Made by a program: the position numbers and the translations under genes
Notes under the pieces: model-generated
Databases searched by the model: none
Told to the model about the DNA's origin: nothing
What the model saw: the letters and a program-made list of their open reading frames with translations, nothing else
Origin: Naegleria gruberi
Lineage: Eukaryota
Reading direction: 5' to 3' (one strand)
Length of the DNA stretch: 64,000 bases
Assembly (NCBI GenBank): GCA_000004985.1
Contig: GG738847.1
Shown: piece by piece, positions 17,282 through 56,276 of the stretch
Numbering within the stretch: position 1 is the stretch's first letter
Layout of the letters: every line of letters begins with the position of its first letter

Positions 17282-18487
17282 TTAGAGTTCGTCGTGATCG
17301 GCCTTCTTTTCTTCGACTGGCTTTTCTTCTTGCTTCTTCTTTTCTTCTTCTTCTCTCTTCTTTCTTTCTTCTTCTTCCTTGGCCTTCTTGGCAGATTCAA
17401 TCTTATCGAAAGCTTCCTTTTCCTTCTTGGCACGTTCAACAACCTTTTGAACAGCTTCGTTGGCAACATCCAAATCATCAGTAACCATAATGTTATCAAA
17501 GATAGTACCAGCCTTAACTTGCCAGATTTCAATACCAGCATATTCAATATCGTTATACTTGGCAACATCTTCATCGAAAGCATAATCTGGGTTAGCAATG
17601 AGTGGAGCAGACCATTCACCCTTGTAAGCTGGGTTAGGGATCATTCTAGCCTTCCATTCACCCTTGTATTCTGGGTTTGGAATTTGAGGAGCTTCCCAGG
17701 CACCATCTTCTTCTTCGTCCCAGTTTTCTGGCTTCTTGGCTTCTGGATCAGAAATATACTTTGGTTGATCCCAGTCTTCTGGCTTCTTATCAGTTTCATC
17801 AACAATTTCCTTTTCATCAACCCAATCAGCTGGCTTCTTGGCTTGTGGATCTGGAATATCCTTTGGTGGCAAAAAGTCCCAATCATCATACAAACTTCCG
17901 CTTTCCTTCTTTTGACCATCAATTTGGACTTCATAGGTAGCATCAGGATTGATAATAGCAGTGTAAATGTGAGTGAGTTGATCAGTTTCACATGGAACAG
18001 TCTTCTTCCACAACAAGTTCTTACCCTTGTAGTTGAAGATGAAGTGAATTCTTCTAGTAGCAGAACCACAGATATCAGGACCGAACATAATTCTATATTC
18101 AGTGTCATCCTTGAAGTTTTCTTGGCTAGCACCAGTTGGCAAGAACTTTAAGTAAGCACCACCACAGTCAATGCTTTGTGGATGTTTAGTGGAGAATTGA
18201 ATAACGAGTGGCTTATCACCTCTAGAGACGGCTGGTTTATCGAATCTAGCAGAGATTGAGTAGTGTCTAGCATCTTGACCAGTTTGAAGACCCTTGTCTT
18301 CTTCAGCATCACCGTACCATTCACCGGCAGTGTGTTTCCATTCACCATAGTTATCCTTAGACTTGCTCTTAACCCATCTGGCTTCATATCCAGCATGGAA
18401 AGGTTCATAGAAGAAAGTTTCAGCTGAAACTATAGCAGCTACGCTCAACAAGAGAGCAGCTAACACGATATGTTTAGTTGTAAACAT
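17282..18487 (-). CDS. crt: Calreticulin (ER lumenal lectin chaperone), 401 aa, with a C-terminal HDEL retrieval signal
   Basis: Has a signal peptide (MFTTKHIVLAALLLSVAAIVSA) and the calreticulin N-domain (KGLQTGQDARHYSISARF, IDCGGAYLKF, IMFGPDICG). The P-domain repeats (PxxIxDPxAxKPEDWDx and GxWxxPxIxNPxYK) are present. The acidic K/E-rich C-domain ends in ..HDEL*. ATG at 18487-18485; TAA stop. Confidence 0.92.
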   Translation of the reverse strand: MFTTKHIVLAALLLSVAAIVSAETFFYEPFHAGYEARWVKSKSKDNYGEWKHTAGEWYGDAEEDKGLQTGQDARHYSISARFDKPAVSRGDKPLVIQFSTKHPQSIDCGGAYLKFLPTGASQENFKDDTEYRIMFGPDICGSATRRIHFIFNYKGKNLLWKKTVPCETDQLTHIYTAIINPDATYEVQIDGQKKESGSLYDDWDFLPPKDIPDPQAKKPADWVDEKEIVDETDKKPEDWDQPKYISDPEAKKPENWDEEEDGAWEAPQIPNPEYKGEWKARMIPNPAYKGEWSAPLIANPDYAFDEDVAKYNDIEYAGIEIWQVKAGTIFDNIMVTDDLDVANEAVQKVVERAKKEKEAFDKIESAKKAKEEEERKKREEEEKKKQEEKPVEEKKADHDEL

Positions 18488-29397: not shown

Positions 29398-29600
29398 TTT
29401 TTTTGATTCGACTAATTGAAATTCTCGTGGAGGGAATTTTATCAAAATTAAAAGGGAGTGTACTCACTGATAATAAGTGTTGTTCCTGTATCATTCCTTG
29501 ATGTGATGATAGATTGCTAATTATTAACTATTAAAAATTATTATTGCAAAGAAAAGTAGAATTAAATTTTGATTTTGAAGAAAATAAATTTAGAAAAAAA

Positions 29601-30774
29601 ATGTTAGAAGAAAAGAATTCATGTTGCTCGGAGGAAGATTGTGCCGAATGCAGGGAGGAGGATGAAGAGGAAAATATTGAACCTTATTTATTGATGGATG
29701 AAGTGAATCAATGTTCTATTTCAAATTGGTATTATTTATATGATGGAAAGACAAATCCACAAATTACACCAAAGAGAATTACAATTCTTTCGAAATTAAT
29801 TTATTTAAATGATGATTTTATTGAATATTTGAAACATGATGGTGTGGTGTTACCGGAATCGATTGATAACATTCAAAAAGTTCCAAATTTTGACAGTGAC
29901 AGCGATGAAGAGGAGGAGAAGTATAAGGAAGTACAAGAAAAGAATGAACAAGATTCGGATGAGGATGATTATCAAGTTCCTGAATTTACGTCTTTACAAA
30001 TGGAAATTGCAAGTGCAATTGAGGAGTATGAAGAAGTTTTCCCTAAAATGAATTGGAGCGCACCAAAAGATGCTCAATGGATGCTCAGTGATTCCAAATT
30101 ACTGAGATGTCAAACAGTTTCTGATGTTTTCCTCGTTTTGAAGAGTTCTTCTTTCGTTACACATGACGTTCAGCAAGCTTACAACAATTGCACTGATTAC
30201 ACCCCTGAAAAGGAGGTCAGAAGAGTATTGGCTTTGAGAAAATGGTATGATGTTAATCCTTCCATGGAATTCAGATGTTTTGTAAAGAATAGAAATTTGA
30301 TTGGTATTTCACAGAGAGATATTTCAAACTTTTACAGCTTCTTGGTTTCAGACAAGGATATGTATAGAGAAAAATTAGTTGGATTTTGGGAAAAGTTTAT
30401 CAAGAATTCATTCCCACTTGAGAATTGTAAGTTACATTATTCGAATATCATTATTAGAATATGCTGCTGATTGAATAATATATTTAACAGATACTGTTGA
30501 TTTATATATTAGTAGAACTGGACCAGTTTTCATTGTCGATTTCAATGTTTATGGCCCTCCAACTAGTCCACTTTTATTTGCCTCTTTCAAGAAGGGTCAT
30601 TTGGCTTCTGATTCTACTGAATTAGAATTTAGAATTATTGAAACAGATGCAGGTGTAATGAGACCTAGTTTCAAGATGTACACTGGTGTTCCAATGGATT
30701 TCTTCTCTGTCGAAAATGCTCAATCCATGCAAGACTTTATTGAAAAGCAACAAAAGTTCCAATCAAACGAATAA
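29601..30774 (+). CDS. cdc123: Cell division cycle protein 123 (CDC123/D123). Two exons: join(29601..30426, 30491..30774).
   Basis: Exon 1 has the CDC123 hallmarks (..NQCSISNWYYLY.., ..VFPKMNWSAPKDAQWM.., ..EFRCFVKNRNLIGISQRD..) and ends in phase 1 at T|GTAAGT. The intron is 30427-30490 (64 nt, ..TTAACAG|). Exon 2 reads ..YTVDLYISRTGPVFIVDFNVYGPPTSPLLFASFKKGHL.. to a TAA stop at 30772-30774. ATG at 29601 (first ATG; the ORF-track start at 29544 is TTG). Confidence 0.75.
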
Positions 30775-32729: not shown

Positions 32730-32802
32730 GCCGACATAGCTCAGTTGGGAGAGCGTAAGACTGAAGATCTTAAGGTCCCTGGTTCGATCCCTGGTGTCGG
32801 CA
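32730..32802 (+). tRNA. tRNA-Phe (anticodon GAA), 73 nt; CCA not encoded
   Basis: GCCGACATAGCTCAGTTGGGAGAGCGTAAGACTGAAGATCTTAAGGTCCCTGGTTCGATCCCTGGTGTCGGCA. It has a 7-bp acceptor stem (GCCGACA/UGUCGGC), D-loop AGTTGGGA, anticodon loop CTGAAGA, T-arm GGTTCGATCC and discriminator A. It is closely similar to canonical eukaryotic tRNA-Phe and is followed by a T6 run. Confidence 0.95.
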
Positions 32803-32810: not shown

Positions 32811-32955
32811 CTTTATGTATTTCATGATAACTAAAGTGTTTTAATTACATTATCATCGAAAGTTTCAAAATAGAAGGTTGTGAAATAGTTAAATTTATTT
32901 TGTTATTAATATTTCTCACTTATTACTAAGAGTGTGAGCAAATGCCAAAATTAAT

Positions 32956-33924
32956 TTACAAGGAAGGTTTGACGATTGGCTTTGATGACTTCTTGCATGT
33001 CTTTCTCTTGATACAAATCTTCTTCTTGATTGACTTGCAACACTTCTTCTTTCCACCAACAAATTTGAATTTCTTACAAATTTTCTTACCCTTTGAACGT
33101 TTCAAACACTTCTTATAATACTTCTTCTTGATACATCTTGGAGGAATGATAATTGACTTGGCACAATACTTCTTCTTTTGATATTTGACACATTTGGAAA
33201 CAGTCTTCTTGTGCTTACAGAACTTGATGGTCTTATGCTTGGCACAGAAGAATTTCTTCTTAATGAGACAACACTTCTTAACTGATTTTCTCTCCTTACA
33301 ATATTTAACCTTCTTATACTTGGCACATTTCTTAGCCCATGAAACTATCTTGCACTTTTTAACATATCTACATTTGGCAACCTTCTTATTGTAGGAATCA
33401 ACAGTGTACTTGTCGCAAACCTTCTTCTTTTCACACTTCTTGATTGGAACCTTCTTGAATTTCTTGCAGACCTTCTTAAATCCCTTCTTGACACACTTGT
33501 TAATAATCTTGTGTTTGGCACAGAATTTCTTGAAGCCCTTCTTGATGCAAATCTTCTTTGTTCCATAAGAATCACAAACTTTCCAATACTTCTTCTTGGC
33601 ACATCCAACTACTTTGTATGCATGCAAGACGCATTTCTTTGTTGGCTTGCTATACTTGTCACATTTGGAATATTTCTTATGTTTGAGACATTTGCCAGCA
33701 CCGACAATGGCATATTGATCACAGACTTTCTTTTGACCAACGAGTTTGTGCTTTAAACACTTCTTAATCCACTTGTGCTTTAAGCATTTTCTCTTACAAA
33801 TCTTTGGCTTGTGATACTTGTCAACAACGACTGGAGGTTTAGTTTGATAGCTGTCACTTGCTTGAACAGAGAGGATGGCAAGCAAGAGTAGAATTGCAAT
33901 TGAAAAGATTAGATTTGCTTTCAT
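32956..33924 (-). CDS. Secreted, extremely Lys- and Cys-rich repetitive protein (322 aa, roughly 31% Lys, 14% Cys, predicted pI well above 10). No recognisable domain.
   Basis: ATG at 33924-33922; TAA stop. The N-terminus is a signal peptide (MKANLIFSIAILLLLAILSVQA). It is followed by reiterated motifs KCLKHK (x3), CAKHK (x2), KKGFKK[FV]C (x2) and FCKHKK, with Cys spaced every 5-9 residues. The antisense ORFs 33102-33326 and 33345-33608 are artefacts of AAG/AAA codon bias. Confidence 0.6.
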   Translation of the reverse strand: MKANLIFSIAILLLLAILSVQASDSYQTKPPVVVDKYHKPKICKRKCLKHKWIKKCLKHKLVGQKKVCDQYAIVGAGKCLKHKKYSKCDKYSKPTKKCVLHAYKVVGCAKKKYWKVCDSYGTKKICIKKGFKKFCAKHKIINKCVKKGFKKVCKKFKKVPIKKCEKKKVCDKYTVDSYNKKVAKCRYVKKCKIVSWAKKCAKYKKVKYCKERKSVKKCCLIKKKFFCAKHKTIKFCKHKKTVSKCVKYQKKKYCAKSIIIPPRCIKKKYYKKCLKRSKGKKICKKFKFVGGKKKCCKSIKKKICIKRKTCKKSSKPIVKPSL

Positions 33925-34240: not shown

Positions 34241-37200
34241 TTATTTACTCAGAAAAAGAGAATATTTGATGGAAATATTGGTGTGCATTGAAGAAAGTTT
34301 TGTTCCTTCATCAGGAAGCTTGTCACATTCATCAATTACCTTTTGAACTAGATGGTGGATTGAAACATCCTTATTTCTCGTACTTTTCGCCTTGAGAGAA
34401 CTCTTGGAAATGATTAACAAATGAACAATGCTGTCCATAGAAGAAAGTCTCTCAGCAAATGATTCCCAATATTTTTCCATATTGTAATGAACACTGCTCA
34501 ATCTTCTCATACTCAAAAACTTGGATGTACTCTTCTCAGTTGAAGAAGGAGAAGAATAAATAGATGCTGTGGAAATAGCTAGTGGATTATTGGCAGTAGC
34601 ATCAATTCTTGTTAAATTTTGTGAAGTTCTTGTAATTTCTTGTTGATTCTTCTTCTTTGCTTCCAAAATCTTCTTTTGAAGTAGTGGATCACGAATATCT
34701 TGTTCTTCAATTAGTAAATCTTTCAATCTTTGTATTGCTACATAGAGTGCTGTCTCTCCATATAAATTAGTTTTCTCAATTGAATATCTGTAATGTCTTG
34801 GATCTAGTCTTCTCTCCTTCAAAATAAATGAACTATTTTCATGATGTGCTTGATCCTCTTCACTGCTTTCATTGATGGTTGGTCTTCTCCTTCTGAAAAA
34901 TCTACCAGATCTCGGCTCTGAATCCCTTGGAGTTTGTTGATCTTCAGGTGTAGTAGCACTTTGAGATCTTCTTGGAGTTTTGATGAGGTTGGAGAGTTTT
35001 TCAAATCCTTTTTTGAATCTGGCAGTACCTGGGCTTTGTTGAGGACTTGGTTGTGGCGAAATTTTCTTTTCAATTAATGAAACTTTCAACTGTGGAATAT
35101 TCACTCTGCCACTATCTTGTAATGATGTAGATGTTCCACCAAGTTGGAAAGCAAGTTTGGCATTAGAAGGAAAGACTGTAGTATTAATGTCAGAGTCACT
35201 TGAGGACATTTGCTTTGAAACAGCTGTCAATCCCAAATCTGAAACATCCGTAGCTGAACAATCAGTATGTCTTCTGAAAGGAACCAGAGTTCTTCTCTTT
35301 TGTTGAATATCATCTTGATTCTCAGTGGCAACTGAGAGGAATAGCTCTACAACATTCGAATTATTAAACCAACATGCCAAGTGGAGTGGAGTGAATCCCT
35401 CATACTTGTCTGGTTCGTAAAATAATTTCTGATAGAGATCTTCTGGCAGTGAGAGGGCACATAAATGTAAGAATACAACATTATTGGACATGGCTGCCAG
35501 ATGGAACAAGTTCAATCCATGAGCAATAGTCTTGACAGTACAACATGCCTTATAATCAATTTCATTCAAGAGGTATAACCACACTCTCATATAATTCTTT
35601 CTTTCAGCATCAGTTAAATCCTTATTCCAATTTCTAGAGTTGGTTCTAATGAATTTTTCCAGTGATCCCAATGGTGAATTTGGATAATAGGAAGGTTGAT
35701 ATCTCTCCAAGAACTCATCAGTCTCCATCTTGTCATTGTAATGCACAGAAAGAACACTTCTCATTAGAGCAGTTAGACCATTATCATCTCTCATATTGGC
35801 AAAAGTAATTGGCTCTGTATAGAAATCAATTAATAATTTCACAATTTCTGGATATCCTTTTGATGCTGCAATATGAAGTGATGTGACTCCAGAATCTCTC
35901 TTCTTGAGGGTAGGTGAAACCCCCAACAAGATCATTGTTTCTATGGATTTGTAATCTCTAGCATCTGCAGCCAAGTGAATAGCTGCATTACCATAGGTGT
36001 CCTTTCTGGCCCAGTCCAACTTTTTAACACCTGTTTTGGAGAGAGCCGTCAAGAGCATTGTCAAAACATCACAATTTCCTTTTGTGGCTGCTACATGAAG
36101 AGCTGTTCCTTCAATCTTGTTTGTGTAATTGAGATTAATGTCAAACTTGCTCAACATCAGTGCAACAACCTCAACTTGATTATATTGAATTGCTATCTGA
36201 AGTAATGAATTACCATTATGATTATCTCTTATATTGTTCACATTTGTATCATCGAGAACGCACTCCAACAATGCAACACAACCACTCTTAGTAGCATGAA
36301 TGATAATGTTAGAGTTCTTAGCTACTTCTGAAAGTGGAGTCAGCTTGGGAATGTAAAATGATAGAGATGATCCAACTTGTTTCAGAGGAGTACTCACGCT
36401 TATTGGTGCAGCTCCCTTTGTTGGTGTTGATGGATCTTTTAGAGCAGAGGCTGCTACCTGATTAGAAAAACTCAATAAATTGGAAGAGGAGGCTGCCTTG
36501 ATATGAATTGGAGAATTGGTGGAGGAACCTCTTCCAAACATGAGTTTAGTTGGAGTGTGAGGTGATTTGAGGTGTTCTACTAAGAGATCTGTTGCTGGTT
36601 TTGAAGCTTCTAGAGTAGGCACAGGTTTCTTTTGAGGAGAGAAGGCCAATCCATTATTATCCACTGCAGGTATTGGGCTTATTGGATTGATAGAATAATT
36701 GGTAGCACTTGCTGCAACACTATCACTAATGTGATGTTTGATATCGACAACAAAATCTTGGTGATGTGAAAATGATGAAGCTGCCATTGAATTGCTTCTT
36801 CTCTTTCCTTGGGCAGCTCTTTGTTTGGTATTCCTTCTTCTGGCTGTTTTGTTTCCCTGCTCATTGATGTGATTTGTAATTGAGGTCCCAACTCCAACTA
36901 TTGCTCCATAAACTGCTCCAATATCAATACGAGGTGTCAGTAAATCGTGATCATTATAACTTGTCACACTTGATATCGATCTAACAGAAATCATTCCATC
37001 ATGATGGAAAGGATCAGATTCATCCATAGAATTTTTAAAATTCAAATTGAGTGGATACTTTCCCTTTTCTGAATGAGATGGGGGGTGATCTGTTGTTGGA
37101 TTACTATTTACTCTATGATGTTGTGGTTTGTTATGTGCTGGTGATGTAGGGTATGAATGAGAATTATCTGTTATCACTGAAACTGCTGATAGAGGTGTTG

Positions 37201-38413
37201 GGCTATTATTAGTAGTATTAATGGTTGAAGTTGGAGCCACTATATTATCATTAAATACTGATATCTTTACAGGTGACAGAGTTGGTGAGGCAGTTAAATT
37301 GATATGAGAAAATGAATTATTATGATCATTGATTGGGGAAGACACTCTATGAATGTTGGAAGAAGGAGGGCTTGTTGTAAGATTAGAGGAATTATTTTGA
37401 GTTGGTGATGATACATTGGAGGAATTAGTTGGTGGTGGATTTGTTGCTTTTTGAATATTATTACCAATTTGATAATTGTTATCATTATTGAGAGGTGCTG
37501 AACTATTTGGAGAGGTTACATTAGTGGTTTTGGAGGATGAGGATGGAGTTGATACATGATAGAAAGATTGAGATTTCTGATTTAACAATTGAGAGGATGA
37601 AGTGTTAAAATTCACAGGCACTCTTCTACCATTAATAATGGCAACATTATTACCTGACAGTGAGGAAGGGGTGGATGGAGTTTTCATTGCATAATCTATT
37701 GCTCCACCATTGCTGGGTTTTGGAGTACAGACAATATCATTGTCCCAGCCCTGATTGTTTCGTTGTGGTTGTAGTGGTGATTGCAAATCGTGTAAACCAC
37801 TTGTAGGAGATACAAGTCTTTCTGCCGAAGGTGTCGATGGAGTTGGATAATTACTGGCATATCCTAGTCTATTGTTGTGTAATTTTGCCTCTCGTTCCAT
37901 AGTTTCATGAATTTGTTGTTTCTTCGTTTGGACATGATTCAAATAGTTTGCCAAATGCTTGAACATTTTCCCAGAAAGTAGTTTCCCATTATTATTCGAA
38001 TCTTCATGTGGTGAAGTTAGAGTATTGAGACTGGATGTATCATTGGAGCTTCTTGGTGTGATATTGTTTGAACTTCGTGGTGTGGATGGAGTTGTTGACA
38101 TTCCTCCAACAGATGAATTACATGAAGTGGGCGACAGGGCATTATTCCTCATCATGAAAGGCACATGTTGTTGTGATTGTAATGTTGGTTTAAATGTTGA
38201 AGTGCTATTATTACTTCCATTATTATTTGAATTATTATTCCTATTATCTCCATGTTGTTCTTGTTGTTGCTGCTGCGGTAACGAAGAATAGGATGAAGGA
38301 GAGAGAATGATGGAACCACTATTATTGTTATTATTAATTATGGAGGATGAAGAAGTTGTTGATTGAATGGTTGCCGAAGTTGTGGAAACCGTTTGAAGAT
38401 CAATACCATCCAA
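34241..38413 (-). CDS. Large ankyrin-repeat protein with an N-terminal N/S/Q-rich low-complexity region. 5' end unresolved.
   Basis: The ORF is 1390 codons. Ankyrin repeats include ..GNSLLQIAIQYNQVEVVALMLSKFDINLNYTNKIEGTALHVAATKGNCDVLTMLL.. and ..GNAAIHLAADARDYKSIETMILLGVSPTLKKRDSGVTSLHIAASKGYPEIVKLLI... The top of the ORF is TTG, not ATG, and the frame stays open only to 38512 with no ATG. The true start is either an internal Met or an unrecognised upstream exon; a possible acceptor is CTCCTTAAAG| at 38441. Confidence 0.55.
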   Translation of the reverse strand: MDGIDLQTVSTTSATIQSTTSSSSIINNNNNSGSIILSPSSYSSLPQQQQQEQHGDNRNNNSNNNGSNNSTSTFKPTLQSQQHVPFMMRNNALSPTSCNSSVGGMSTTPSTPRSSNNITPRSSNDTSSLNTLTSPHEDSNNNGKLLSGKMFKHLANYLNHVQTKKQQIHETMEREAKLHNNRLGYASNYPTPSTPSAERLVSPTSGLHDLQSPLQPQRNNQGWDNDIVCTPKPSNGGAIDYAMKTPSTPSSLSGNNVAIINGRRVPVNFNTSSSQLLNQKSQSFYHVSTPSSSSKTTNVTSPNSSAPLNNDNNYQIGNNIQKATNPPPTNSSNVSSPTQNNSSNLTTSPPSSNIHRVSSPINDHNNSFSHINLTASPTLSPVKISVFNDNIVAPTSTINTTNNSPTPLSAVSVITDNSHSYPTSPAHNKPQHHRVNSNPTTDHPPSHSEKGKYPLNLNFKNSMDESDPFHHDGMISVRSISSVTSYNDHDLLTPRIDIGAVYGAIVGVGTSITNHINEQGNKTARRRNTKQRAAQGKRRSNSMAASSFSHHQDFVVDIKHHISDSVAASATNYSINPISPIPAVDNNGLAFSPQKKPVPTLEASKPATDLLVEHLKSPHTPTKLMFGRGSSTNSPIHIKAASSSNLLSFSNQVAASALKDPSTPTKGAAPISVSTPLKQVGSSLSFYIPKLTPLSEVAKNSNIIIHATKSGCVALLECVLDDTNVNNIRDNHNGNSLLQIAIQYNQVEVVALMLSKFDINLNYTNKIEGTALHVAATKGNCDVLTMLLTALSKTGVKKLDWARKDTYGNAAIHLAADARDYKSIETMILLGVSPTLKKRDSGVTSLHIAASKGYPEIVKLLIDFYTEPITFANMRDDNGLTALMRSVLSVHYNDKMETDEFLERYQPSYYPNSPLGSLEKFIRTNSRNWNKDLTDAERKNYMRVWLYLLNEIDYKACCTVKTIAHGLNLFHLAAMSNNVVFLHLCALSLPEDLYQKLFYEPDKYEGFTPLHLACWFNNSNVVELFLSVATENQDDIQQKRRTLVPFRRHTDCSATDVSDLGLTAVSKQMSSSDSDINTTVFPSNAKLAFQLGGTSTSLQDSGRVNIPQLKVSLIEKKISPQPSPQQSPGTARFKKGFEKLSNLIKTPRRSQSATTPEDQQTPRDSEPRSGRFFRRRRPTINESSEEDQAHHENSSFILKERRLDPRHYRYSIEKTNLYGETALYVAIQRLKDLLIEEQDIRDPLLQKKILEAKKKNQQEITRTSQNLTRIDATANNPLAISTASIYSSPSSTEKSTSKFLSMRRLSSVHYNMEKYWESFAERLSSMDSIVHLLIISKSSLKAKSTRNKDVSIHHLVQKVIDECDKLPDEGTKLSSMHTNISIKYSLFLSK

Positions 38414-46050: not shown

Positions 46051-46070
46051 TTCATGGCTCGCCACGTTTA

Positions 46071-46141
46071 CCGTCTCGGGAGGAATCGAACCTCCGTCAA
46101 TGGATTCAAAGTCCACTATGCTACCATTACACCACGAGACG
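46071..46141 (-). tRNA. tRNA-Gln (anticodon UUG), 71 nt
   Basis: The reverse complement is CGTCTCGTGGTGTAATGGTAGCATAGTGGACTTTGAATCCATTGACGGAGGTTCGATTCCTCCCGAGACGG. It has a perfect 7-bp acceptor stem (CGTCTCG/CGAGACG), anticodon arm GTGGA-CTTTGAA-TCCAT and T-arm GGAGG-TTCGATT-CCTCC. The GGACTTTGAATCC core is typical of tRNA-Gln(UUG). Confidence 0.85.
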
Positions 46142-46951
46142 AGCACATTTATGATATTTCGATACGAATAATTAACTGGATTGGAACATAAAAGCACACG
46201 ACATTCTTGTTACATATTGAAAAGTAGTGTAGTATCGTCTTCATTTCCCCAATACTCCAAATTGGTAAAATATTTAGTATGAACAACCGTTTCGAATAAA
46301 TTTCTTGCTTAATCACTGATTCAACAAAATTCGGAAAAAGTTACCCAAACATGAACTTGTCCTTCACTGAAATAACGTTGCCAAACGTTCTCCAATTTCA
46401 CTAACGTTACCCAAACACTTTACAATATTCTTACCACACAACACAATAACTCTCAAAAAGAACAATCATCTCTCAAGTGTTCATTCATCTTATGTTTCAC
46501 TTATATATGATGATATCAATATCTTTTTCAATCATTACATATGATATCAAATGATTTGTTTTTATGTAAAAAAAAAGAATTCTCTATATCTCTAGTCATA
46601 AAAGGCGTTTATTCAATGAATATTATGTTTGTTCCTCACTCACTTTTCATTGTTTTATGAAAATGATGAAGGGGTGTTTGAGGTATTTTAATGTTGAATC
46701 TGTTGTGCTGATGAAATTAGGTCCTCACAAATGCCATCATAAACTGCTACAAGTCAGCCATCACTATCCCTTTAAAAAAAACAACTCAAAAAAATTTTCC
46801 AACAACAACTACCCCAATTATCCAACAAATTTGCGAGAGGTATCTCAGTCCCCAGTAAATTTTAGACAACTTTATACATTGGATAATACATCACCTAAAC
46901 TAGACTAATCCTCCCTCACTTTACGAATATATAACATCATCCTTCTTCAAC

Positions 46952-54878: not shown

Positions 54879-56276
54879 ATGAGTTTTGATGGTTTTGAAG
54901 AAATTGCAAGCACGTTGATTCAAGCCAATCACGTGAAACAAGCTTTGCAAGCTGTAAACAAACAGCAAAAGATGTACAAAACACTCCTCTCACAAAGACA
55001 ATTACCAAAGGAGGGATTTTCGGATCAACAGATTGAGTCCTTGCTTTCCTTCTTTGCATCAATGGATACGAATAATTATGAAAATCATATCGGAATTGGA
55101 GAAAGAGAAGGAAGAGTGTTTAGTAAATTGGTGGAAAAGAGACACTTCTACCTCAGTCATGGTATTGGAAGATCTGGAGAATTAACATCAAATCAACCAA
55201 AAGCAGCTGGATCCTCTATTATTTTACAGTTGTGTAACTATCTTGTCAATCATGCAATTCAATTAGCAGGATGTAAAAATGTAAAGAAATCAATTGTTGT
55301 GCCAATGTGTACAGGAATGACACTTGCCTTGTGTCTGAGATCCTTGGCCAACAGTTTGGAACAGCCCAATAAGAAGTATGTCATTTGGCCAAGAATAGAT
55401 CAACAATCTGTCCTCAAATCTATTGACACTGCTGGATTTACACCAATAGTCATTGAGAATGTTTTAAATGAGGATGGATCTATTGAGGCAAATCTACAAT
55501 CTATTGAAAGCAAGATACAACAAGTTGGAGCTGAAAATATTTTGTGTGTCTTGTCGACAACAAGTTGTTTTGCACCTCGAGTTCCAGATGATGTTTTTGA
55601 AATTGGAAAGATTTGTTTCAAGTATGGAATTGGACAAGTTGTAAATAATGCCTATGGAGTTCAATCAAAAATAATTATGGAGAGAATTAACAAGACAATT
55701 GCCAGTTCAAAATCAACCATTACTTGTTTCGTTCAGAGTACTGATAAGAACTTTATGGTACCTGTCGGAGGAGCTGTTGTTTCCAGTGGTAGTGATATCA
55801 CCTTTATTGATAAGGTGTCGAAAATATATGCAGGAAGAGCATCCATGACACCAATTCTTGACCTATTCATCACTCTTCTATCAATGGGTAAAGATGGATG
55901 GGAGAAGCTTCTCGCAGAACGAGAGGTGCTATTTCAACATTTTGTTTCTGAGATTGAATCCAAATTAACCAATACCCAATCTAAATTTTCCTTAATACGA
56001 GGCTCTTTACAGAGAAACCAAATTTCATTTGCTCTTTCCATTGATTTACCAAAGGAGGAGGCACTAAAGGTGGGCGTATCGCTTTTTTACAGAAATTGTA
56101 CTGGTCCTCGGGTAGTTCTGAAAGGTAGCTCAAAAACAGTACTCCCCCATCTTTCATTTGTTGGATATGGTTCTCATACTGATTCCTATCCTCATCATTA
56201 CATTACGCTTGCTTGCGCTATTGGTATTGAAAAGGAGGAAATTGAATCCTTCTTAACCTTGCTTAATAAAGTTTAA
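54879..56276 (+). CDS. sepsecs: O-phosphoseryl-tRNA(Sec) selenium transferase (SepSecS/SLA-LP), 465 aa
   Basis: ATG at 54879. There is strong full-length similarity to SepSecS (..GIGEREGRVFSKLVEKRHFYLSHGIGRSGELTSNQPKAAGSS.., ..WPRIDQQS..AGFTPIVIENV.., ..LSTTSCFAPRVPDD.., ..NNAYGVQS..). The PLP-lysine context QSTDKNFMVPVGGAV is present. Confidence 0.85.
   Translation: MSFDGFEEIASTLIQANHVKQALQAVNKQQKMYKTLLSQRQLPKEGFSDQQIESLLSFFASMDTNNYENHIGIGEREGRVFSKLVEKRHFYLSHGIGRSGELTSNQPKAAGSSIILQLCNYLVNHAIQLAGCKNVKKSIVVPMCTGMTLALCLRSLANSLEQPNKKYVIWPRIDQQSVLKSIDTAGFTPIVIENVLNEDGSIEANLQSIESKIQQVGAENILCVLSTTSCFAPRVPDDVFEIGKICFKYGIGQVVNNAYGVQSKIIMERINKTIASSKSTITCFVQSTDKNFMVPVGGAVVSSGSDITFIDKVSKIYAGRASMTPILDLFITLLSMGKDGWEKLLAEREVLFQHFVSEIESKLTNTQSKFSLIRGSLQRNQISFALSIDLPKEEALKVGVSLFYRNCTGPRVVLKGSSKTVLPHLSFVGYGSHTDSYPHHYITLACAIGIEKEEIESFLTLLNKV

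What the first reader, a model, noticed from the sequence alone, without database searches (positions are those of the whole stretch)
32956..33924. Secreted protein of roughly 31% Lys and 14% Cys, built from reiterated KCLKHK, CAKHK and KKGFKKxC motifs, with no recognisable domain
The ORF has a canonical ATG, a clear signal peptide and a TAA stop, so it looks like a real gene. The mature ~300-aa product is an extreme polycation with Cys spaced every 5-9 residues, in motifs I cannot assign to any known fold. It is not EGF, defensin, granulin, protamine or histone. Candidate roles are antimicrobial or pore-forming polycation, extracellular nucleic-acid or polyanion binding, a matrix or spore-coat component, or metal binding.
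Basis: seen in the sequence. Interest (0 to 1): 0.6.

Follow-up and report, generated by a model that had tools for sequence, protein, structure and literature searches.

The report
Unannotated Naegleria secreted lysine-cysteine ladder protein
This is a real but unannotated gene of the amoeba Naegleria gruberi for a secreted, extremely lysine-rich protein whose cysteines are arranged like a mirror image, which suggests one very long hairpin held together by about 15 disulfide rungs; it belongs to a small uncharacterised family and its function is untested.

Summary
The ORF at 32956..33924 (-) is real: 322 aa, ATG to TAA, with a signal peptide and an AATAAA after the stop. Lys is 33.5%. Cys is 9.9%, not 14%. 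Cys recurs mainly every 9 residues, not every 5-9.

The window is the N. gruberi NEG-M reference scaffold, but this protein is missing from the annotated proteome. A 62%-identical metagenomic gene shows purifying selection (pN 0.25, pS 0.82). Codon bias resembles that of calreticulin.

New observations:
- Thirty of the 32 Cys form 15 mirror pairs around a tip at C170/C185 (z about 6 against segment shuffles, in six Naegleria members).
- AlphaFold2 predicts one long beta-hairpin (95-170 against 185-273, pLDDT 70-90).
- The two leftover Cys sit in CC doublets.
- All 7 Asp lie in D-x-Y motifs.

Best reading (inferred, about 0.4): a roughly 40 nm polycationic disulfide-ladder rod that serves as a cross-linkable extracellular or cyst-wall component. 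The rivals are an antimicrobial or prey-binding polycation and a polyanion packager. Expression and disulfide mapping were not testable here.

The parts
32956..33924 (-). Complete intron-less coding sequence (322 codons plus TAA) of an unannotated N. gruberi gene
   Evidence: ORF list and sequence. 0/20000 shuffles are stop-free. The exact product is not in the 15-billion-protein collection, while five neighbouring ORFs match N. gruberi EFC entries exactly. There is purifying selection against L004.
33859..33924 (-). Signal peptide, aa 1-22 (MKANLIFSIAILLLLAILSVQA|S)
   Evidence: Hydrophobic core with mean KD 2.72, and small residues at -3/-1. It is conserved at the N-terminus of all full-length family members. 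SignalP was not available.
33799..33858 (-). N-terminal tail, aa 23-42, with two D-x-Y motifs (SDSYQTKPPVVVDKYHKPK)
   Evidence: Homologous tails in relatives carry tandem [VIP]-D-[ST]-Y-x-P units.
33415..33798 (-). N-arm, aa 43-170: 15 Cys (14 inter-Cys segments), mostly nonapeptides C-[ALVI]-K-[KHY]-[KG]-x-x-K-x-C
   Evidence: Cys spacing and 9-mer profile. Mirror pairing with the C-arm. AF2 predicts strand for 95-170 at pLDDT 70-90.
33373..33414 (-). Predicted hairpin tip, aa 171-184 (DKYTVDSYNKKVAK), flanked by C170 and C185 and carrying two D-x-Y motifs
   Evidence: Best fold-back point in the mirror alignment. The homologous loop is the best point in P0003 as well. It is the non-strand segment between the two long strands in both AF2 models.
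32995..33372 (-). C-arm, aa 185-310: 17 Cys, of which 15 are rung partners and 2 are extra Cys in CC doublets (219, 296)
   Evidence: AF2 predicts strands 185-273. This half is 88.8% identical to the C-terminal part of the mis-fused model NAEGRDRAFT_76199.
32959..32994 (-). C-terminal tail, aa 311-322 (KKSSKPIVKPSL). It is not hydrophobic, so no GPI or membrane-anchor signal is evident
   Evidence: mean KD of the last 20 aa is -0.38.
32894..32899 (-). AATAAA polyadenylation-signal-like hexamer, starting 57 nt after the stop codon
   Evidence: (offset 56 in the downstream sequence), and TTTATT read on the + strand. This is a consensus match only.

Best explanation
This is a genuine gene of Naegleria gruberi that is missing from the reference annotation.

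After removal of a 22-residue signal peptide, the product is a secreted polycation with a net charge of about +105. It is built from about 30 degenerate nonapeptides, each ending in Cys.

I propose that the chain folds back on itself once, at aa 171-184. That gives a single two-stranded antiparallel beta-ribbon with arms of roughly 43-170 and 185-310. At about 0.33 nm per residue the ribbon would be about 40 nm long. About 15 cross-strand disulfides would staple it, one rung every 9 residues. Hydrophobic residues flank each rung and belts of Lys lie between rungs.

Two further Cys, in CC doublets, have no partner in the ladder, so each rod would be bivalent for intermolecular disulfides. The D-x-Y tyrosines cluster at the two termini and at the tip.

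Functionally I commit to an extracellular structural role, most plausibly in the cyst wall. In this reading the rod binds anionic wall material through its Lys belts and is cross-linked into a network through the spare Cys and possibly through Tyr. It would work the way basic, rod-like, Tyr-cross-linked extensins work in plant walls, without being related to them.

Shown: the gene is real, the family exists, the 9-residue period, the mirror symmetry, the D-x-Y rule, and the absence of known relatives.
Inferred: secretion, the hairpin ladder and the actual disulfide pairing.
Speculative: the wall role and the cross-linking chemistry.

My separate confidences:
- real protein-coding gene, about 0.95;
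- secreted or luminal, about 0.85;
- single hairpin ladder, about 0.6;
- structural wall or matrix role, about 0.35-0.4.
For: Gene is real:
- 322-codon ORF, with 0/20000 stop-free shuffles and an AATAAA after the stop.
- Against the 62%-identical gene on metagenome contig L004, pN is 0.253 and pS is 0.816. Differences by codon position are 80/90/167, and 30 of 32 Cys are conserved.
- GC3 is 0.49, AAG is 74% and TTC is 70%. This resembles calreticulin and differs from most neighbours, whose GC3 is 0.21-0.32. It suggests selection for efficient translation.

Organism and annotation gap:
- Five neighbouring ORFs are exact N. gruberi EFC entries on a 941,567-bp scaffold, while this product is absent.

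Family:
- Relatives match at E = 3.6e-84 to 2e-11.
- Only 21 hits appear in 1.84e9 representatives.
- The named members are N. gruberi NAEGRDRAFT_67458, 64980, 66117 and 76199, N. fowleri FDP41_004030 and N. lovaniensis C9374_009239.
- Cys columns are conserved.

Hairpin ladder:
- The spacing-9 autocorrelation has z = 7.9.
- The mirror alignment pairs 30 of 32 Cys. Irregular segments face each other (6|6, 10|10, 12|12, the 12s both carrying the VG motif).
- The mirror score is 36.0 against 21.7 +/- 2.2 for segment shuffles (0/100 reach it; 0/120). The best parallel alignment scores 26.0. z is 5.2-6.7 in six Naegleria members.
- In subfamily B the long segments also face each other (17|18, 13|12). 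The homologous landmarks (VG.GKC, and the second Cys after the PRC motif) still pair, with 11 rungs on each arm (plus my count from the sequences).
- AF2 with 5 sequences gives strands 138-170 and 185-217 at pLDDT about 90. With 18 sequences the strands extend to 95-170 and 185-273 at pLDDT 70-90.

Structural or cross-linking flavour:
- All 7 Asp are in D-x-Y, against 0.4 expected (0/5000 shuffles). The figure is 8/8 in L004, and the motif is enriched in every Naegleria member.
- Relatives have tandem IDSYKP-type tails.
- There are always two leftover Cys.
- There is no acidic pro-region and no facial amphipathicity in the 9-mer profile.
Against: - No expression, localisation or disulfide data exist. 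No paper mentions any family member.
- The overall AF2 confidence is modest (mean pLDDT 68.8, pTM 0.28). Residues 24-90 are below 50.
- I could not inspect the coordinates, so S-S geometry is unchecked. No negative control of AF2 on a scrambled repeat was possible.
- From general knowledge of beta-sheet geometry, cross-strand disulfides strongly prefer non-hydrogen-bonded pair sites, which recur with period 2. An odd spacing of 9 would put alternate rungs on disfavoured sites unless bulges reset the register. A perfectly regular ladder is therefore not expected.
- A net charge of +105 on a compact ribbon is electrostatically costly without a polyanion partner.
- Mirror symmetry is weaker in the distant members (z = 3.8 and 2.2).
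- Nothing links the family specifically to cysts. The wall role rests on analogy and on the lack of other known extracellular structures in Naegleria (my knowledge).
- Neighbouring genes are unrelated housekeeping genes.
Confidence: 0.4

Rival explanations
1. An antimicrobial or prey-binding polycation. In this reading it is a giant relative, in principle only, of the cationic disulfide-stapled beta-hairpin peptides. It would be secreted or delivered to phagosomes of this bacterivorous amoeba, where it binds and permeabilises or agglutinates anionic bacterial envelopes.
For: - It has a signal peptide, extreme positive charge and a predicted disulfide-stapled hairpin.
- Naegleria feeds on bacteria (my knowledge).
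- There are several diverged paralogues per genome, as is common for immune effectors.
- High-expression-type codon bias would fit a constitutive effector.
Against: - It is 300 aa long rather than 16-25.
- It has no acidic pro-piece to neutralise it during export. There are only 9 acidic residues, 7 of them locked in D-x-Y.
- The nonapeptide profile puts Lys and hydrophobic residues on both faces, so there is no facial amphipathicity.
- The Cys scaffold is conserved while Lys content varies from 12 to 33% across the family.
- Pro-rich D-x-Y-x-P tandem tails look structural.
- The codon comparison shows overall purifying selection.
Confidence: 0.2
2. A polyanion condenser or packager. It would bind polyphosphate, acidic polysaccharide or nucleic acid inside secretory or lysosome-related vesicles, or extracellular DNA, as a counter-ion scaffold rather than as a load-bearing wall element.
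For: - Net charge is about +105, with Lys belts recurring every 9 residues (about 3 nm).
- Such a charge almost demands an anionic partner (inference).
- Basic pI is conserved across the family, 9.2-10.7.
Against: - Condensers such as protamines or H1 need no conserved 30-Cys scaffold, no mirror symmetry and no D-x-Y motifs.
- No partner polyanion is known.
- This overlaps with the best explanation, in which polyanion binding is one step.
Confidence: 0.1
3. A structural rival: the protein is not one long hairpin. The Cys might form local C-x8-C loops between sequence neighbours, or mostly intermolecular bonds in a disordered cross-linked polycation (keratin-associated-protein or protamine style). 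Alternatively the repeats might stack as a beta-solenoid.
For: - The 9/18/27 periodicity alone would fit a solenoid or local loops.
- An odd rung spacing is awkward for a flat antiparallel ladder (general knowledge).
- AF2 confidence is low for aa 24-90, and the alignments are shallow at 5 and 18 rows.
- The Cys gains and losses near the tip between subfamilies involve sequence-adjacent Cys, so they fit local pairs as well as mirror pairs.
Against: - None of these models predicts mirror-image placement of the irregular segments, which exceeds every one of 100-120 segment shuffles in six proteins and beats the parallel alignment.
- Arm lengths co-vary between subfamilies.
- AF2 independently gives the same fold-back point.
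Confidence: 0.3
4. Not a real gene: a chance ORF or a decayed pseudogene copy of a paralogue.
For: It is absent from the reference annotation. No transcript data were available here.
Against: - 0/20000 stop-free shuffles.
- The frame is intact, with signal peptide, stop and AATAAA.
- pN is far below pS against L004, with an excess of third-position changes and 30 of 32 Cys kept.
- Codon bias is strong.
- The likely reason for the miss is the extreme composition. A paralogue was also mis-modelled (NAEGRDRAFT_76199).
Confidence: 0.03

Closest known systems
Uncharacterised Naegleria 'predicted proteins' NAEGRDRAFT_67458 (EFC44692), NAEGRDRAFT_64980, NAEGRDRAFT_66117 and NAEGRDRAFT_76199 (C-terminal half); N. 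fowleri FDP41_004030; N. lovaniensis C9374_009239
   Same: True homologues, at E = 2.6e-57 for 67458 and 45-88% identity to the closest ones. They share the signal peptide, the conserved Cys columns, the 9-residue period, the mirror Cys pattern, the D-x-Y motifs and a basic pI.
   Different: - The window protein is the most Lys-rich member (33.5% against 12-31%).
- It is not itself in any database.
- None of the relatives has a name, a Pfam domain or a publication.
Cationic disulfide-stapled beta-hairpin peptides (tachyplesin, protegrin, arenicin; the 'cystine ladder' of theta-defensins)
   Same: The predicted principle is the same: two antiparallel strands, cationic, tied by parallel cross-strand disulfides.
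   Different: - These peptides are 16-25 residues long with 1-3 disulfides. This protein has about 2 x 127 residues and about 15.
- There is no sequence relation.
- The rung spacing here is 9 residues instead of 2-4.
- There is no facial amphipathicity and no pro-piece.
- This is a resemblance from my knowledge, not a tested membership.
Extensins and other basic rod-like hydroxyproline-rich wall glycoproteins of plants and green algae
   Same: The proposed working mode is the same: a secreted, Lys-rich, basic, rod-shaped repeat protein that binds acidic wall polymers and is locked in place by covalent cross-links through recurring Tyr motifs.
   Different: - There are no Ser-Pro(n) repeats.
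- The rod would be a disulfide-laddered beta-ribbon, not a polyproline-II helix.
- The motif is D-x-Y, not Y-x-Y or VYK.
- There is no homology.
- Cross-linking here is speculation.
Cys-rich structural proteins that polymerise by disulfide exchange (cnidarian minicollagen Cys-rich domains, insect high-cysteine chorion proteins, keratin-associated proteins) and Lys/Tyr/Cys-rich adhesive or tanned proteins (mussel Mfp-6, trematode eggshell precursors)
   Same: The composition logic is shared: abundant Cys for covalent networks, and Lys plus Tyr as cross-linking or adhesive chemistry.
   Different: No sequence, motif or fold relation was found. None of these has a single mirror-symmetric 30-Cys ladder. 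These are comparisons from memory only.
Known protist cyst-wall proteins (Giardia CWP1-3, Entamoeba Jacob/Jessie/chitinase lectins, Acanthamoeba Luke/Leo/Jonah lectins)
   Same: All are secreted and Cys-rich, which fits the proposed location.
   Different: Those carry LRR, chitin-binding, CBM49 or other recognisable domains. No Pfam domain is found in any of the eight family members scanned here. The Acanthamoeba cyst-wall paper (PMC6541295) mentions Naegleria only in its reference list. I found no Naegleria cyst-wall proteome in the library.

Membership tests
Unnamed Naegleria K/C-rich secreted family (NAEGRDRAFT_67458 and relatives) | Significant full-length sequence similarity to the other members | tested here: met
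   E = 2.6e-57 with 45% identity over 88% of the query to P0003; 88% to the C-terminal half of P0002. In the profile search P0003 scores 8.7e-120, and there are only 21 hits in 1.84e9 proteins.
Unnamed Naegleria K/C-rich secreted family (NAEGRDRAFT_67458 and relatives) | N-terminal signal peptide followed by conserved Cys columns at a spacing of about 9 residues | tested here: met
   Alignments A1-A3 contain 13-14 invariant Cys columns among the 5 closest members. The spacing-9 autocorrelation has z = 7.9.
Unnamed Naegleria K/C-rich secreted family (NAEGRDRAFT_67458 and relatives) | Mirror-symmetric Cys pattern about a central loop, and D-x-Y motifs | tested here: met
   Mirror z is 5.2-6.7 in six Naegleria members. 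D-x-Y is enriched in all of them, with 7/7 Asp in the window protein.
Cationic beta-hairpin antimicrobial peptides / cystine-ladder peptides | Short mature peptide (about 16-25 aa) released from a precursor, often with an anionic pro-piece | tested here: not met
   The mature protein is 300 aa with no acidic region. It has 7 Asp and 2 Glu in total.
Cationic beta-hairpin antimicrobial peptides / cystine-ladder peptides | Antiparallel hairpin tied by cross-strand disulfides | tested here: inconclusive
   This is predicted by the mirror symmetry and by AF2. No coordinates could be inspected and there is no experimental disulfide map.
Cationic beta-hairpin antimicrobial peptides / cystine-ladder peptides | Facial amphipathicity and membrane activity | tested here: not met
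   The 9-mer position profile mixes Lys and hydrophobic residues on both alternating faces. Activity cannot be tested with these tools.
Granulin, EGF, defensin, knottin and other catalogued Cys-rich domains | Match to the family profile or Cys signature | tested here: not met
   There are no Pfam hits at E<=10 for the window protein and none above threshold for seven relatives. A PDB profile search gives 0 hits at E<=1.
Protamines / histone H1-like basic nuclear proteins | Nuclear, no signal peptide, Arg-rich (protamine) or with a winged-helix globular domain (H1) | tested here: not met
   A signal peptide is present, Arg is 1.9% and there is no linker-histone domain.
Extensins / HRGP wall rods | Ser-Pro(3-5) repeats and Y-x-Y / VYK cross-link motifs | tested here: not met
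   There are only 9 Pro and no SPPP. The Tyr motif is D-x-Y. Only the proposed working mode is similar.
Beta-solenoid Cys-repeat proteins (e.g. beetle antifreeze protein type) | Direct (parallel) repeat register with stacked, equivalent Cys | tested here: not met
Known protist cyst-wall protein families (Giardia CWP, Entamoeba Jacob/Jessie, Acanthamoeba Luke/Leo/Jonah) | LRR, chitin-binding, CBM49 or related lectin domains | tested here: not met
   No Pfam domain is found in any family member.
Cyst-wall component of Naegleria (functional class, not a sequence family) | Induced on encystment and physically present in the wall | not testable with these tools
   There is no transcript or proteome access. 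No paper cites any family identifier.

The most novel reading that the evidence does not exclude
The family represents a protein architecture not described before. It would be a single two-stranded beta-ribbon about 40 nm long, a 'giant cystine ladder' with about 15 rungs at a 9-residue pitch, carrying two spare Cys that make each rod a bivalent building block. It would also be the first molecularly identified structural component of the Naegleria cyst wall, including that of the pathogen N. fowleri through FDP41_004030.
Probability: 0.25. Interest if true: 0.8.

Novelty: categorically new. Interest (0 to 1): 0.6.

Why it matters
- **Protein architecture.** If the ladder model holds, this is a new way to build a stiff, nanometre-thin rod from a single chain. 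It would interest structural biologists and protein designers.
- **Naegleria biology.** No cyst-wall protein of Naegleria turned up in any of my literature searches. The cyst is the resistant stage that lets N. fowleri persist in water systems. A family conserved in N. gruberi, N. lovaniensis and N. fowleri would give a first handle (antibody, marker, target) on that wall. If the antimicrobial rival is right instead, it would give a handle on how the amoeba handles bacteria.
- **Annotation.** The case shows that extreme-composition genes are missed or mis-fused by gene callers. With a Lys about every third residue, the protein would also be nearly invisible to tryptic proteomics. Its absence from published datasets therefore says little.

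Tried and rejected
- **Exact-sequence look-ups** of the window product, P0002 and P0003 for genomic context returned nothing. The paralogous loci in N. gruberi therefore could not be read.
- **Paralogue in the window:** none. tblastn of six family proteins hits only 32959-33924.
- **DNA-level tandem repeat:** none in the gene. The nonapeptide repeat is old and degenerate.
- **Pfam** on the protein and on seven relatives gave nothing. The PDB sequence profile gave nothing.
- **Viral origin:** no relative in IMG/VR (the first attempt with A3 had no usable conserved stretch).
- **Literature.** Seven searches were run, covering identifiers, accessions, and Naegleria cyst wall, encystment and proteome terms. 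None found any mention of the family. The old chemical analysis of N. gruberi cyst walls that I remember (Werth and Kahn, 1967) and the 1988 review are not held, so I did not use them.
- **The bacterial promoter/terminator scan** is irrelevant for a eukaryote and was at shuffle level.
- **Gene neighbourhood** gives no functional hint. The neighbours are D123, a Rad23-like gene, a PheRS-like gene, and cNMP-binding, Myb and ankyrin genes.
- **D123 near a distant family member** in L003 looked like synteny, but the two D123 proteins share only 30% over 74 aa. I treat this as unproven.
- **Metal binding** (C-x-x-H occurs 6 times) is rejected as a main idea. In a strand, residues i and i+3 face opposite sides, and secreted Cys at even number are expected to be oxidised. 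This is inference.
Full report
**1. The observation**

The minus strand of 32956..33924 carries an uninterrupted ORF of 322 codons from ATG to TAA.

- Lys is 108/322 (33.5%), or 35.7% of the 300 residues left after the predicted signal peptide.
- Cys is 32/322 (9.9%, or 10.7% of the mature protein).
- The quoted motifs are present: KCLKHK x3, CAKHK x2 and KKGFKK x2.
- Cys spacing is not 5-9. A distance of 9 dominates the inter-Cys gaps. The autocorrelation at lag 9 is 16 observed against 3.2 expected (z = 7.9), with harmonics at 18 and 27.
- Cutting the sequence at each Cys shows about 30 degenerate nonapeptides. Their profile is C-[A/L/V/I]-K-[K/H/Y]-[K/G]-x-[hydrophobic/K]-K-[K/hydrophobic]-C.
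- There is no tandem repeat at the DNA level.
- None of 20000 shuffles of the ORF is free of in-frame stops.

**2. Where the window comes from, and whether this is a gene**

Five other ORFs of the window are exact matches to Naegleria gruberi proteins EFC49815, EFC49816, EFC49817 (calreticulin), EFC49826 and EFC49610. All sit on one 941,567-bp scaffold. The window is therefore the NEG-M reference genome.

The product of the target ORF is not in the 15-billion-protein collection. No gene with this product is on record. The homology search returned no 100% hit. The gene is thus unannotated.

A paralogue was also mis-modelled. NAEGRDRAFT_76199 (P0002) joins a SAM/PB1 protein to a C-terminal 152 aa that is 88.8% identical to aa 171-322 of the window protein.

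Evidence that the ORF is a functional gene:

- A metagenome contig (L004) holds a complete 326-aa gene that is 62% identical. Against it, pN = 0.253 and pS = 0.816 (saturated). Differences by codon position are 80/90/167. Thirty of the 32 Cys align, and both proteins have exactly 32.
- Codon usage (GC3 0.49, AAG 74%, TTC 70%, ATC 42%) resembles calreticulin, a highly expressed type. It differs from most neighbours, whose GC3 is 0.21-0.32.
- The start lies in an A-rich context (ACAAAAAATG), and an AATAAA starts 57 nt after the stop.

No transcript data could be consulted.

**3. The family**

- The word-indexed search found five relatives.
- An exhaustive HMMER profile scan of 1.84 billion representatives found only 21 hits at E<=1e-3.
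- The named members are all Naegleria: N. gruberi NAEGRDRAFT_67458, 64980, 66117 and 76199, N. fowleri FDP41_004030 and N. lovaniensis C9374_009239. All are labelled 'predicted', 'hypothetical' or 'uncharacterized'. The rest are soil or water metagenome fragments.
- Two distant members (P0037, P0038/P0046) are much less Lys-rich (about 13%). One of them carries an extra N-terminal Cys-rich region.
- All members are basic (pI 9.2-10.7). The window protein is the most extreme, with a net charge of +105.
- The Cys columns are the conserved core.
- No member has a Pfam domain. A profile of the family hits nothing in the PDB sequences. There are no relatives in viral contigs. No paper contains any of the identifiers or accessions.

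**4. Anatomy: a mirror-image Cys pattern**

The inter-Cys distances read 4, 9, 12, 11, 9, 10, 10, 9, 9, 9, 9, 9, 11, 6 | 15 | 6, 9, 9, 9, (1+8), 9, 9, 9, 10, 9, 10, 12, (1+8), 6.

Folding the chain at the 15-residue segment (C170-DKYTVDSYNKKVAK-C185) brings 15 Cys of the N-arm opposite 15 Cys of the C-arm. The irregular segments face each other:

- 6 opposite 6;
- 10 opposite 10;
- 12 opposite 12, both carrying a V-G motif (LVGQKKVC and FVGGKKKC).

The only unpaired Cys are the second members of two CC doublets, 219 and 296.

I scored this with a banded alignment of the reversed N-arm against the C-arm.

- The window protein scores 36.0, against 21.7 +/- 2.2 for permutations of its own inter-Cys segments (0 of 100 reach it; 0 of 120 in a first run).
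- The best parallel (direct-repeat) alignment scores 26.0.
- The same holds for P0003, P0025, P0027, P0030 and P0045 (z = 5.2-6.7). It holds more weakly for the distant P0037 (3.8) and P0046 (2.2). These proteins are homologous, so they are not independent tests.
- However, the subfamilies differ by indels, and the symmetry survives them. In P0025 and P0027 the long segments face each other (17|18, 13|12). The homologous landmarks still pair: the Cys of VG.GKC with the second Cys after the PRC motif. There are 11 rungs on each arm in both subfamilies (and my count from the sequences).
- Direct repeats, solenoids or local loops do not predict a mirror pattern. An intramolecular antiparallel hairpin does.

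**5. Structure prediction**

- AlphaFold2 with 5 aligned sequences was poor overall (pLDDT 43). It nevertheless gave two 33-residue strands, 138-170 and 185-217, at pLDDT about 90.
- With 18 sequences the mean pLDDT rose to 68.8. The strands extended to 95-170 and 185-273 (pLDDT 70-90), with small breaks at 118-119, 237-238 and 261-262. The tip and residues 24-90 remained uncertain.
- The strand limits fit i+j of about 353-356, the register deduced from the Cys pattern.
- I could not see the coordinates, so disulfide geometry is unverified.

**6. A caveat on the ladder**

This point comes from general knowledge of sheet geometry. Cross-strand disulfides prefer non-hydrogen-bonded sites, which alternate with period 2. 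A pitch of 9 would put every other rung on the disfavoured site unless bulges or strong twist reset the register. The conserved 10-, 11- and 12-residue segments, the Pro-containing segments and the breaks in the AF2 strands may be such resets. This is unresolved and is the main physical argument against a regular ladder.

**7. Other features**

- All 7 Asp of the protein are followed by x-Tyr (0.4 expected; 0/5000 shuffles). In L004 it is 8 of 8. The motif is enriched in every Naegleria member and absent from the two distant ones.
- The motifs sit just after the signal peptide (SDSY, VDKY), directly after rung Cys (CDQY, CDKY, CDSY), and twice at the tip (CDKYTVDSY).
- Relatives carry tandem units such as KIDTYKPAIDSYKPTIDSYKPKIDSYKP at the C-terminus. 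In a hairpin the two termini lie together, so D-x-Y tyrosines cluster at both ends of the rod.
- There is no N-glycosylation sequon and no hydrophobic C-terminus.
- Each Naegleria member examined has two Cys left over after mirror pairing, usually in CC doublets, at positions that differ between paralogues.

**8. Mechanism**

Shown: a conserved, selected, signal-peptide-bearing polycation with a mirror-symmetric 9-residue Cys pattern.

Inferred: it enters the secretory pathway and oxidises into a single disulfide-laddered beta-ribbon about 40 nm long (about 127 residues per arm at about 0.33 nm per residue).

Proposed: it is an extracellular structural element, most plausibly of the cyst wall. 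The steps would be:

- the Lys belts bind anionic wall polymers;
- the two spare Cys make each rod bivalent for intermolecular disulfides, so that chains or networks can form;
- the terminal and tip Tyr may add oxidative cross-links.

The arguments for a structural rather than an antimicrobial role are indirect:

- there is no acidic pro-piece;
- there is no facial amphipathicity in the nonapeptide profile;
- the scaffold is conserved while the charge varies;
- the Pro/Tyr tandem tails look structural;
- the codon comparison shows purifying selection.

Against the wall role, nothing ties the family to encystment, and I found no published Naegleria wall composition or proteome to compare with.

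I put the hairpin ladder at about 0.6 and the wall or matrix role at about 0.35-0.4. I put the antimicrobial or prey-binding role at about 0.2 and a polyanion-packaging role at about 0.1.

**9. Comparison with known things**

It works, by hypothesis, like two known classes.

- The first is the cationic disulfide-stapled hairpin peptides and the theta-defensin cystine ladder, but scaled up more than ten-fold and without their amphipathicity or precursor organisation.
- The second is the extensins: basic rods that are locked into a wall.

It is a member of neither. The defining features tested (size and pro-piece, amphipathicity, Ser-Pro repeats, profile matches) are not met. It is also not a granulin, EGF, defensin, protamine or H1 protein, nor one of the known protist cyst-wall lectins. 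The only family it belongs to is the unnamed Naegleria one.

**10. Verdict**

The gene is a new, unannotated member of a tiny uncharacterised lineage-restricted family. Its predicted architecture has no described counterpart. The function remains inferred.

Interest is 0.6. It is high for the architecture and for Naegleria cyst biology if confirmed. It is tempered by the complete lack of experimental or expression data.

Noticed in passing
window 32956-33924 (-): The gene is absent from the N. gruberi NEG-M reference proteome, although five neighbouring ORFs match EFC entries exactly. Extreme Lys/Cys composition probably defeated the gene caller.
   Followed up: yes
P0002 = NAEGRDRAFT_76199 (EFC36128), 39.8-kb scaffold: This is a chimeric gene model. 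An N-terminal SAM/PB1 protein is fused to the C-terminal 152 aa of a paralogue, which is 88.8% identical to aa 171-322 of the window protein. The N-terminal half of that paralogue was apparently treated as intron or intergenic.
   Followed up: partly
L001 1743-1786: A 44-nt GTAAGT...AG intron interrupts a family member in a metagenome contig. Prokaryote-style gene calling split the gene into P0005 and P0043. Splicing restores '...KKQH|FCCSYKPVPFCTQFKNLKPKC...', which matches the paralogue P0025. An independent contig (P0026) reads into the same intron.
   Followed up: yes
window 32730-32802 (+) and 46070-46142 (-): tRNA-Phe(GAA) lies 154 bp beyond the 3' end of the target gene, on the opposite strand and overlapped by a spurious 61-aa ORF. 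tRNA-Gln(TTG) lies further on.
   Followed up: no
L003 4825-7053 (P0046) and L003 727-2037; window 29544-30470: A distant 742-aa family member (GC 0.39, probably another heterolobosean-like protist) carries an extra N-terminal region of about 370 aa. That region consists of roughly 45-aa 'CP...CPAGKK' Cys modules with no Pfam match. A D123 gene lies about 3 kb away, as in the window, but the two D123 proteins share only 30% over 74 aa. Conserved synteny is therefore unproven.
   Followed up: partly
window 34241-38413 (-) and L002 1132-2811: The 1390-aa ankyrin-repeat ORF next to the target gene has a long N/S/T-rich low-complexity N-terminal half. It aligns over 343 aa (24% identity, E = 9e-14, including non-repeat stretches) with the ankyrin gene next to the paralogue P0004. 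This could mark an old two-gene duplication or merely reflect the abundance of ankyrin genes. The gene orientation differs between the two loci.
   Followed up: partly
P0042 (539 aa, from the representative library): This protein has about 25 tandem copies of an 11-mer, CDRHKLIGAGH, followed by a non-repetitive C-terminal region that I did not characterise. The unit resembles the window segment C68-DQYAIVGAGK-C79 (E = 1.1e-4). It is probably a translated satellite repeat or a chance match.
   Followed up: no
window 54879-56276 (+): This is O-phosphoseryl-tRNA(Sec) selenium transferase (SepSecS, EFC49610), part of the selenocysteine machinery. Calreticulin lies at 17282-18487.
   Followed up: no
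P0028 (125 aa, representative library; source not looked up): This fragment joins the N-arm up to 'KLVGKKKVC' directly to the tip 'DKYTVDSY...', skipping about 100 residues. It is likely an assembly artefact across the repeated 'KKVCD.Y' motif, though a genuine short isoform cannot be excluded.
   Followed up: no
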